Source: Negaprion brevirostris
Taxonomy: Eukaryota
Length of the DNA stretch: 64,000 bases
Assembly: GCA_030324005.1 (NCBI GenBank)
Contig: JARDVH010000193.1
Location: 39,251,696-39,315,695 of the forward strand
Reading direction: 5' to 3'
Each line of letters opens with the position of its first letter. Positions within the stretch are counted from its first letter, which is position 1. The translations under genes and the position numbers were made by a program. The notes under the pieces were generated by a model. That model had not been told where the DNA came from and made no database searches. It saw nothing but the letters and a program-made list of their open reading frames with translations. Shown in pieces: positions 59,021-61,549 of this stretch.

Positions 59021-59464
59021 ACAGCATTCGGCCCACAAGTTGCGCCGATCACTTCTATACCTCCTAGGCCATGGACCTGTCTGTGGCCCCCAGTCCCATT
59101 GGACCCCATGTGCTCATCCAGAGGTCTTTTGGAAGGCCCTGGCGAGTTCACCTCCACCGCCACCGATGGCGGCCGATTCCATTCACTCGCCACCCTCTGA
59201 GTGGGGGGCTTGCCCCTGGCGTCTCCTCTGTGCTTGCTTCCCTGCGCCTTGAATCTGTGTCCTCTCATGGCGACCATTTCCGCTCTGGGGTTCCACTCTG
59301 TCTATTCCTCTCAACATCTTGTGAACCTCTGTCGGGTCGCCTCTTGGCCTTTGTCTCTCCGGGGAGGGGAGATCTGGCTCCCTCAACCTATCTTCGTGAG
59401 GCATGCCTCCCAATCCAGGCAACATCCTTGTAAATCTCCTCTGCACCCTTTCAATAGCTTCCAC
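59021..59464 (-). mobile_element. CR1 LINE 3' fragment with T-to-C hypermutation on the coding strand (A-to-G on plus)
   Basis: [18 protein letters not shown] followed by REPDLPSPERQRPRGDPTEVHKM where CR1 normally has RELGLFSLERRRLRGDLIEVYKM. Confidence 0.92.
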
Positions 59465-59596
59465 GTAGGGAGGTCTTGCTGCAACTGTACAGGGCACTGG
59501 TGAGGCCGCAGCTGGAGTGCTGTGTGCAGTTTTGGTCGCCACACTTACGCAAGGATATTTTGGCCTTGGAGGGAGTGCAGAGGAGGTTTACTAGGC
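59465..59596 (+). mobile_element. CR1 LINE fragment running into a gap
   Basis: [42 protein letters not shown]. Confidence 0.92.
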
Positions 59597-59696
59597 NNNN
59601 NNNNNNNNNNNNNNNNNNNNNNNNNNNNNNNNNNNNNNNNNNNNNNNNNNNNNNNNNNNNNNNNNNNNNNNNNNNNNNNNNNNNNNNNNNNNNNNN

Positions 59697-59886
59697 GTTT
59701 GCACATTCTCCCTGTGGCTGCATGGGTTTTCTCCAGGTGCTCCGGTTTCCTCCCACATTCTGAAAGAAGTGCTGGTTAGGTGCATTGACCTGAACAGGTG
59801 CTGGAGTGTGGCGACGAGGAAGATTTCACAGTAACTTCATTGCAGTGTTAATGTAAACCTACTTGCAACACTATTAAATAAACTTT
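59697..59886 (+). mobile_element. V-SINE (head hidden in the gap)
   Basis: GTTTGCACATTCTCCC...CAGTAACTTCATTGCAGTGTTAATGTAAACCTACTTG tail. Confidence 0.88.
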
Positions 59887-61549
59887 AAAAATCTAGCTGT
59901 TCCATCCTGGTAATTTCCTCTTTCATCTTCAGTAAAACTGGAATGGATACATCCTGACAACTTATCTAGGGAAATACATTGAATTGAGTTTTAGTTTGAT
60001 GTTTGCATGTACTTTCACAAGAATCTTGCCAGACTTTTGAAAAAATGGCCTATTTCAAGCTATACGTCACCTTTGCTACTGCCTCTAATTTGGTAGTAGT
60101 CTGAGGACTTGAATTGCTGGTGCTTTGAGTCTAGATCACATTTTCTTCCTCTTTCTTTATCTTTTCTAAGATGTGCATCCCATGAACTTTTCATGCACGT
60201 TCTGAGAATTATATTGTGAGCCATTCTAGCTATTGGTTTGTGTCTGTAATGCAAGTAAAAATCTTTTCAATTACTGGGATTCTGAGAATAATTGTTTTGA
60301 CTGTTCCTGAGTCTGTTGTGCTAATGATTTGGACATCTTTGAGGAAGATGCTCACTGTCTGGAGGTTTCCATCCTTTTGTTATAATTCATCCAGAAATAC
60401 ATGTCATTGGCCATTTATTGGAATGACAGGGATGTTTCCTTCTTCTGACATACTGCTTGTGTCTTTCTTCTAATATCTGTGTCACTTCATACTACAGCAG
60501 GACATCTATCTCTTCAGTGTGGTTAGTAAATATCCACAACCGCCATGGGTTTTCATTTATCAGTGATCTTCTCTCTCCATGCGTGATTTGGTTTCAGATG
60601 CTACTTTGGTCAAGCCACGTTTGTTGGCTGCTAAGCTTTTACAACATGCTTTAAGTAGATCCAGATTTGCTTTCCCATCTGGCTCACGTTTAATGACCTT
60701 CTGTTGCCTTTGAATACCTCCCCTTTGCCTTGTTTGCCTATTGGTTCTCAATTAAGATCAGGGATGACCTTGAAGTCTTTCTAACAGTCTTTCATCTCTA
60801 AGGCTTTCACAAATCATTTCATTGTGTAGAATATCATACATGAAGTGCTCTGCTGCCCCTATGGCTGTGACGAAACGGCCTACAGGTGCCTCCTTTCCCT
60901 TTGGCAGGATTTAGTTCTTTTGAAAATTGCTTTCTGATAATGAAAAAATGCCTCTGAAATCTTTTCACACCCACCTTATTGCTCCTTCTCTCTGTGCCAT
61001 CTTCACTGGGCAGAAAACAATCTCTTGCTTCTTCTCCCTACATCAATGAGAAGGTACAAATTGTCTCGTGTTTTTCACAGAAACCAGTTGCTTTTCTGTA
61101 CCCCAGGGAAACTCAGTACATTCTTTCCCTGTGAGCCTTTCATTGAAATGTTTTCACTTTTCCTGTTATGTAATGACCACTACACCGGTTTACAATCTGG
61201 TTTTTCTGTGTGCCTCACACAAATTTTCTCGCTAATTTGCAAAGCAGCAATGATTTTTGTGGTTTAGTTTTAATTAGACTTAAACACGTGACTTTAGATG
61301 TTTGCTGGTGTTGTATTCCTTTTACCGTGTCCATTGAGGGTGAGAAGGGTGGCAGAAAATCAAGGCAGGGTAAAGATCTGTCTCAAGAGTTACCATTGAG
61401 CATATATTGAAGATGACAGCTTCAACTGAATGCAACTTACCACATCATGATGTAAAAACAAAAACACAACCACTTGAAATACTTTAAAAAAAAGACACGT
61501 GGCTATGTCTTTTTTAGGGAGATACTTGATATTTGGAGAGCCTATCTGT

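What the first reader, a model, noticed from the sequence alone, without database searches (positions are those of the whole stretch)
59021..59464. Genomic fossil of ADAR-type A-to-I hyper-editing in an antisense CR1 LINE copy
Seen in sequence: this CR1 piece is strongly A-depleted on the plus strand (31 A in 59131-59400; none in 59201-59251), and only 2 of those 31 A follow a T. Most departures from conserved CR1 ORF2 motifs are T-to-C on the coding strand: LGLFSLE to PDLPSPE, LRGDLIEVYK to PRGDPTEVHK, YRGDVRGKFFTQRVV to HRGDARGKPPTQRVA, WNxLP to WNRPP, FKRLLD to SKRPLD. The CR1 at 50740-50980 keeps LGLFSLE...LKGDLIEVFK as an internal control. Established: ADAR converts A to I (read as G) in dsRNA and prefers a 5' U or A; neutral decay gives CpG-to-TpG and APOBEC gives C-to-T/G-to-A. 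Inference: an antisense LINE RNA was hyper-edited in the germline, reverse-transcribed and fixed in the genome.
Basis: partly seen in the sequence, partly recalled or inferred. Interest (0 to 1): 0.88.

Follow-up and report, generated by a model that had tools for sequence, protein, structure and literature searches.

The report
ADAR-edited RNA copied into the genome
In a 330-base stretch of this jumping-gene fragment more than half of the A letters on one strand read G, and four other repeats in the same genome show a similar scar, most likely because RNA rewritten by the editing enzyme ADAR was copied back into chromosomal DNA, probably riding in on another jumping gene's insertion.

Summary
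Against 29 genomic sister copies, this single-copy CR1 fragment (59028-59466, minus strand) has 45 of 109 plus-strand A's changed to G, versus T>C 1/106 and G>A 2/53. All 45 lie in 59067-59398, with 5' neighbours T 18/21, A 12/20, C 10/25, G 5/15, which is ADAR's pattern. The fragment lacks its 3' tail and abuts an unedited sense CR1 of another subfamily. Four related lineages show an empty site, and one near-identical run carries the junction. The G's themselves rest on the assembly alone. Eight motif searches found four more edited repeats in two other families, three antisense and one sense. In 5 of 5, a sense CR1 or SINE starts within 70 nt downstream on the edited strand (controls 0-7%; post hoc). 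Best reading: a LINE reverse transcriptase jumped from its own RNA onto ADAR-edited RNA (0.62). Rivals: ADAR acting on cDNA, in-place conversion, artefact, polymerase error. Nine literature searches found no such report for LINEs or SINEs. This scan noted the phenomenon before on other genomes.

The parts
59028..59466 (-). 3' fragment of a CR1-type LINE (subfamily 'O'), 5'-truncated and lacking the last ~35 nt including the (TTCTATG)n tail; one private 14-nt deletion near 59282
   Evidence: Alignment to 29 own-genome copies; match ends at 59466. The name CR1 is recalled from ORF2 motifs and 3' anatomy; Pfam gave no hit on three short peptides.
59067..59398 (+). A>G hypermutated tract on the strand antisense to the LINE: 45 of 81 A's; 5' neighbour T 18/21, A 12/20, C 10/25, G 5/15
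59465..59596 (+). 5'-truncated sense CR1 of another subfamily ('Y'), unedited, head-to-head with the edited piece with a 2-nt overlap at 59465-59466; runs into N at 59597
   Evidence: 92-97% to 29 copies; differs from their majority only at 3 polymorphic columns; 60-71% alike to subfamily O. Junction not found elsewhere among 40 of 1011 candidates scored.
59021..59027 (+). End of the target-site flank; 6 of 7 letters match the antisense of the O tail region, a possible joining microhomology (inferred)
   Evidence: Contigs of X2, X6, X11, X12 match the flank to 59027 and then diverge; X1 runs through into the element
59697..59889 (+). 3' part of an older SINE, shared with relatives and not part of the insertion
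   Evidence: Right-flank contigs of X2, X6, X11 begin at 59861 inside it; many copies in the window

Best explanation
This single-copy, lineage-restricted CR1 fragment carries a one-strand A>G burst with ADAR's neighbour preference, likely because an ADAR-hyper-edited RNA bearing the element in antisense was reverse-transcribed into germline DNA. Inferred steps: (1) a repeat-containing RNA paired with a complementary copy somewhere else, and about half of its adenosines were deaminated; (2) a CR1 reverse transcriptase, priming at the tail of an unedited Y-subfamily RNA, reached 59465 and switched across a 2-nt microhomology onto the edited RNA, reading inosine as G; (3) the cDNA stopped near the O element's 3' stem-loop and was joined to the target at 59027. 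Shown: the spectrum, context, tract limits, missing tail, junction, empty orthologous sites, and recurrence in other families. Inferred: the enzyme, the RNA intermediate and the template switch.
For: Spectrum and density. 5' context p=0.004, repeated in the four other edited repeats after removing the motif-selected sites: T 18/25, A 23/35, C 10/34, G 9/28, p=5e-4. This matches U/A preferred over C/G in PMC3113232 (Results part 1 read). A density near half matches ADAR-type avian retrovirus cases (PMC12925331 passage). Single copy. Empty site in X2, X6, X11, X12; junction present in X1 with 0 differences over 757 nt. Four more edited repeats among 9 non-self motif hits: L111 40/73, L113 12/37, L110 11/46, L109 10/69. 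On the edited strand a sense CR1 or SINE begins within 70 nt downstream in 5/5, against 1/88 and 0/97 in 264 kb of neighbourhood and 19/281 and 5/276 in all controls. The two largest cases (window, L111) both lack the 3' tail. One edited copy (L113) is edited on its sense strand, which a cDNA-strand mechanism does not predict.
Against: The G's rest on one assembly; no read-level confirmation was obtained. No dsRNA partner or source locus was found: in 304 kb around the window (28.5 kb N) no inverted match longer than about 110 nt exceeded 65% identity, and none was found for L111 or L113 in 40 kb each. The architecture rule and the 70-nt cut-off were chosen after seeing the data, n=5, and 1 of the 4 non-edited motif hits (L116) also fits it. 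L109 is a full-length resident SINE split by a CR1, with edits 170-220 nt from the junction, which fits in-place change better. L109 and L110 are only moderately significant once the selected sites are removed (p=0.024 and 0.014, uncorrected). Polarity is 4 antisense to 1 sense (p=0.19), as a cDNA-strand mechanism would give. No 3' G preference (p=0.40). CA>TG double changes (4 of 18 edited CA sites pooled, against 4.5% background C>T) only weakly favour long residence in DNA.
Confidence: 0.62

Rival explanations
1. ADAR deaminated deoxyadenosines of the first-strand cDNA while it was still paired to the element's sense RNA (TPRT or a second, twin-primed cDNA), or of the template strand in an R-loop. 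This is the adenosine counterpart of APOBEC editing.
For: 4 of 5 edited copies are edited on the antisense (cDNA) strand. No dsRNA partner is needed and none was found. The flank end 59021-59027 could have primed on the O tail region. Full-length ADAR2 edits the DNA strand of a matched 90-bp hybrid (PMC5389660, Results part 1 read).
Against: In that paper hybrids react at 0.02 versus >=0.4 per min for RNA duplexes, and only three sites were edited in the 90-bp hybrid, far from 56%. L113 is sense-edited (12/37 versus T>C 0/43). The partner elements' cDNA strands are unedited. No edited copy was found at the young CR1 3' end in either polarity.
Confidence: 0.12
2. The element inserted unedited and was later converted in place, using an edited transcript of this locus (or of a paralogue) as repair template.
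For: The tract is internal with unedited ends (16 of 16 A's kept in 59399-59464, p=2e-6). L109 is a complete resident SINE with a 50-nt edited patch.
Against: No local inverted partner. It does not explain the missing tails or the downstream partners. The locus shows no long host ORF nearby, about 40 kb upstream of a minus-strand homeobox gene.
Confidence: 0.1
3. Assembly or RNA-derived artefact: edited cDNA reads entered the consensus.
For: No independent read-level confirmation of the G's. The tract lies about 200 nt from an N run.
Against: The junction is real DNA in X1. Five loci on five contigs share context and architecture. CA>TG doubles are slightly more frequent than an RNA-only origin predicts (weak). 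The pile-up scans of the fetched DNA (71 kb and 19 kb of alignable positions) found no other A>G/T>C cluster of this kind, so there is no diffuse A>G noise.
Confidence: 0.08
4. Polymerase error: G inserted opposite U or T by a dATP-starved reverse transcriptase or by a Y-family polymerase (eta or iota) during second-strand synthesis.
For: It would give one-strand A>G. The WA preference of polymerase eta is recalled, not from a call.
Against: 56% substitution over 330 nt with only 2 A>T and 2 A>C. The adjoining partner on the same strand is clean. In runs of A the first, T-preceded A is changed preferentially (TAA 6/6). Recalled error rates and processivity of these enzymes do not reach this.
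Confidence: 0.06

Closest known systems
APOBEC 'DNA editing' of retroelements fixed in vertebrate genomes (PMC4866542, passages; lizard L1, PMC3880073, passages)
   Same: Deaminase-type hypermutation of one retroelement copy, seen against sister copies and strand-specific.
   Different: There it is G>A on the sense strand from C deamination of cDNA, with other mismatch types called very rare; here it is A>G, mostly antisense, in CR1, SINE and a third LINE family.
ADAR-type A>G hypermutation of avian retroviruses RAV and ALV (Felder 1994; Hajjar and Linial 1995; seen only as cited in PMC12925331)
   Same: Nearly half of the adenosines changed, carried through reverse transcription.
   Different: Those are retroviral sequences from infected cells; here they are non-LTR repeats in an animal genome assembly, and no local inverted repeat was found.
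ADAR hyper-editing of repeat-derived dsRNA (neighbour rules PMC3113232)
   Same: 5' U/A preferred over C/G; dense clusters in repeats.
   Different: Normally seen only in RNA; here it is in the DNA assembly.
Extra nucleotides and microhomology at LINE 5' junctions; twin priming (PMC4245944, passages)
   Same: Foreign sequence joined at the 5' end of a truncated LINE; short microhomology.
   Different: The extra piece is about 440 nt of another subfamily in inverted orientation and is edited; the two arms come from different RNAs, so it is not a 5' inversion.

Membership tests
ADAR A-to-I hyper-editing footprint | One-strand A>G excess over all other changes | tested here: met
   45/109 versus T>C 1/106, G>A 2/53, C>T 6/154
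ADAR A-to-I hyper-editing footprint | 5' neighbour U/A preferred over C/G | tested here: met
   30/41 versus 15/40, p=0.002; independent loci 41/60 versus 19/62, p=6e-5
ADAR A-to-I hyper-editing footprint | 3' G preference (weaker; ADAR2) | tested here: inconclusive
   G 12/18, A 14/22, C 11/23, T 8/18, p=0.40; TAG 4/4
ADAR A-to-I hyper-editing footprint | A long double-stranded partner for the edited strand | tested here: inconclusive
   None found locally in 304 kb, 28.5 kb of it N; Y is only 60-71% alike; the source RNA may come from elsewhere
ADAR A-to-I hyper-editing footprint | Inosine in an RNA, dependent on ADAR | not testable with these tools
   Needs matched RNA and DNA, or enzyme assays
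CR1-clade LINE copy made by ordinary TPRT | Intact 3' stem-loop and microsatellite tail | tested here: not met
   All 29 sisters end in a TTCTATG-type tail; this copy stops about 35 nt short
CR1-clade LINE | ORF2 reverse transcriptase and endonuclease domains | tested here: inconclusive
   Only the C-terminal ORF2 end is present; Pfam 0 of 3 peptides; family name recalled from motifs
APOBEC-edited retroelement | G>A clusters on the sense strand | tested here: not met
   Plus-strand C>T 6/154, family-like
Twin-priming 5' inversion | Both arms derive from one RNA | tested here: not met
   Arms belong to subfamilies 60-71% alike
Multi-copy G-rich CR1 subfamily | Other copies share the G's | tested here: not met
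   Best other copy 79-82% (40 candidates scored each); exact edited motif once in 2.69 Gb

The most novel reading that the evidence does not exclude
ADAR is a germline DNA editor of retroelements: it deaminated about half of the deoxyadenosines in first-strand cDNA held in an RNA:DNA hybrid, the adenosine twin of APOBEC restriction. A review calls this unknown for retroviral hybrids (PMC12925331 passage), and 4 of 5 edited copies here have that polarity.
Probability: 0.12. Interest if true: 0.92.

Novelty: new variant of a known kind. Interest (0 to 1): 0.7.

Why it matters
If the G's are confirmed in DNA, A-to-I RNA edits become heritable mutations in a vertebrate through LINE machinery, a route long proposed but, in nine searches here, not found reported for LINEs or SINEs. 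The edits also mark which strand was RNA, so they can be used to read how chimeric LINE insertions form: here they point to capture of cellular RNA at CR1 5' ends. The question is directly testable with a whole-genome census. The effect on the genome is small, very roughly 1 in 10,000 repeat copies (3 exact motif copies in 464 kb per family).

Tried and rejected
Read-level check of the G's was inconclusive. In one search (93% likeness) no contig of X1, X12, X2 or X7 covered the edited core (depth 0 at 59080-59139 and 59360-59395). X1's index share of 0.68 equals the 0.678 expected if only the flank and unedited ends are held. This could mean X1 carries the insertion unedited. It could also mean that a ~400-nt, depth-6 path between very deep repeat nodes was clipped or filtered: X1's contigs break about every kilobase here, X7 had no flank contig despite a share of 0.22, and the tool warns that a hole proves nothing. 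No RNA holder was listed. X12 is labelled organism A like X1 but differs at 9 of 228 flank letters, so it is not counted as a conspecific. Hairpin of O with Y: rejected as the main substrate (60-71% alike; visible Y unedited). Source locus with the same junction: none. Target-site duplication: none convincing for the window, whose right end is N, nor for L110 or L111. Motif searches with no hit: sense-edited O, young CR1 3' end in both polarities. Hits dropped: L108, L114, L115, L116 (balanced spectra, p 0.2-0.5) and L112 (beside an N run, not alignable). Eight control head-to-head junctions showed no A>G excess where alignable (L024 and L054 had no pile-up; L054 was balanced at about 63% identity). 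The Fisher value 0.014 printed assumed 0 of 4 non-edited hits had a downstream partner; L116 has one, so that value is not used. The Y motif counted was slightly off register, so its count is not used. Pfam: no hit.

Full report
Setting. The window is G000:C193:39251696-39315695 in a 2.69-Gb assembly. Repeat types suggest a cartilaginous fish (recalled; an earlier scan note on this genome says shark, unchecked). An Iroquois-type homeobox gene (name recalled from the peptide) lies on the minus strand near 16700-18600, so the element is about 40 kb upstream of it; no long host ORF was listed nearby.

The observation. A search of the genome with 59021-59464 scored 40 of 4855 candidates; the best other copy is 82% alike. 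Every one of the 29 fetched sisters differs from this copy by 42-51 A>G and only 1-5 G>A on the window's plus strand. Against the column majority the copy has A>G 45/109, T>C 1/106, G>A 2/53, C>T 6/154 and 4 transversions, while sisters have 0-6 A>G each. Apart from A>G it is as diverged as its sisters; ancestral CpG decay is 5/13 against a mean of 27%. The 45 changes lie in 59067-59398 (45 of 81 A's). The 5' neighbour matters (T 18/21, A 12/20, C 10/25, G 5/15; p=0.004) and the 3' neighbour does not (p=0.40). This is the ADAR pattern reported in PMC3113232 (outline and Results part 1 of 2 read).

Not a subfamily. The edited core alone finds nothing above 79% (40 of 1990 candidates scored). 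An exact motif needing three edits occurs once in the genome, here; its sense-edited counterpart does not occur.

Anatomy. Sisters end in a stem-loop and a TTCTATG-type tail; this copy stops about 35 nt short. At its 5' end it overlaps by 2 nt a plus-strand CR1 of another subfamily (59465-59596) that is unedited and 60-71% alike to it. An N run and an older SINE follow. Contigs of four other lineages (X2, X6, X11, X12; flanks 96-97% alike) follow the left flank to exactly 59027 and then continue for 329-580 unlike letters. Three of them, laid over the right side, share the SINE tail there. X1, identical over 1398 flank and junction letters, crosses the junction to 59056. So the insertion is restricted to this lineage. 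The G's themselves were not confirmed by independent reads (details under Tried and rejected).

More cases. Eight exact-motif searches, paired by strand over four families, gave 9 non-self hits. Four are edited: L111 (third LINE family, antisense, 40/73, tail missing), L113 (same family, sense, 12/37), L110 and L109 (SINE, antisense, 11/46 and 10/69). Four are background and one could not be aligned. With the three selected sites removed from each, p is 4e-12, 3e-4, 0.014 and 0.024, and the pooled context is T 18/25, A 23/35, C 10/34, G 9/28. Pile-up scans of the fetched DNA found no further A>G/T>C cluster (71 kb and 19 kb of alignable positions).

A shared layout. Read along the edited strand, all five are followed within 70 nt by a 5'-truncated sense CR1 (four) or SINE (L110). 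Controls give 1/88 and 0/97 in the neighbourhood and 19/281 and 5/276 overall; the product is 6e-6 without the window, or 1e-4 with a 150-nt cut-off. Cautions: the rule is post hoc; two partner families were defined from these loci themselves; 1 of 4 background hits also fits; and L109 is a resident SINE split by its CR1.

Mechanism. The layout is what is expected if the edited strand was RNA: a reverse transcriptase primes on the partner's tail, copies it, and jumps to an inosine-rich RNA. That accounts for the unedited partner, the microhomology, the missing tails and the one sense-edited case. The duplex in which the RNA was edited is not local and stays unidentified. I give this 0.62. ADAR acting on the cDNA strand of a hybrid fits the 4:1 antisense polarity (p=0.19) and is chemically possible, but it was at least 20-fold slower and limited to three sites in vitro (PMC5389660, abstract and Results part 1 of 2): 0.12. 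In-place conversion 0.10, artefact 0.08, polymerase error 0.06.

Comparison with what is known. Genome-fixed hypermutation of retroelements is established for APOBEC G>A (PMC4866542 and PMC3880073, passages). PMC2873906 (passages) finds A>G clusters enriched in RNA traces. ADAR-type hypermutation carried through reverse transcription is known for avian retroviruses (PMC12925331, passages). Extra sequence at LINE 5' junctions is known (PMC4245944, passages). Nine searches (listings and abstract starts only, apart from the papers named) showed no report of ADAR-edited LINE or SINE copies in a genome; the library lacks most subscription papers. This scan has 33 notes with these words in at least 12 genomes, 8 shown, several describing the same phenomenon on other DNA (unchecked AI notes, not support). 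None mentions the head-to-head template-switch layout by my words, and none covers it in this genome.

Verdict. A real, non-random, ADAR-like scar on a lineage-restricted insertion, with sister cases that suggest how edited RNA gets into DNA. New variant of a known kind; interest 0.70, held down by the missing read-level confirmation and the small, post hoc sample for the mechanism.

Noticed in passing
window 16698-18558 (-): Iroquois-type homeobox gene (name recalled from the peptide; part of the homeobox exon reads N); the edited element lies about 40 kb upstream.
   Followed up: no
L111 = G000:C25:4968360-4971380: Second strongly edited LINE fragment, 40 of 73 antisense A's, tail missing; the best independent locus for PCR confirmation.
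   Followed up: partly
L109 (G000:C1:75964575), L110 (G000:C132:29571238), L113 (G000:C59:74960342): Three further A>G-edited repeats: two SINE tails (antisense) and one LINE end (sense).
   Followed up: partly
L038, L054, L056, L060 and other control loci: Loci picked for 5'-truncated young CR1 copies often show an opposite-strand repeat at the CR1 5' end (14 of 147 element ends in L002-L060 versus 1 of 88 in neutral DNA), suggesting 5' chimeras are common in this genome; none showed A>G excess where alignable.
   Followed up: partly
window 59028-59696 versus X2, X6, X11, X12: Relatives have 329-580 unique letters after 59027 that are not visible in the window: deleted at insertion or hidden by the N run.
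   Followed up: no
L108 2024-2246: A 227-nt palindromic repeat (84% self-complementary), multi-copy, MITE-like.
   Followed up: no
run X12: Carries the same organism label as X1 but differs from the window at 9 of 228 flank letters and shares variants with organism B.
   Followed up: no
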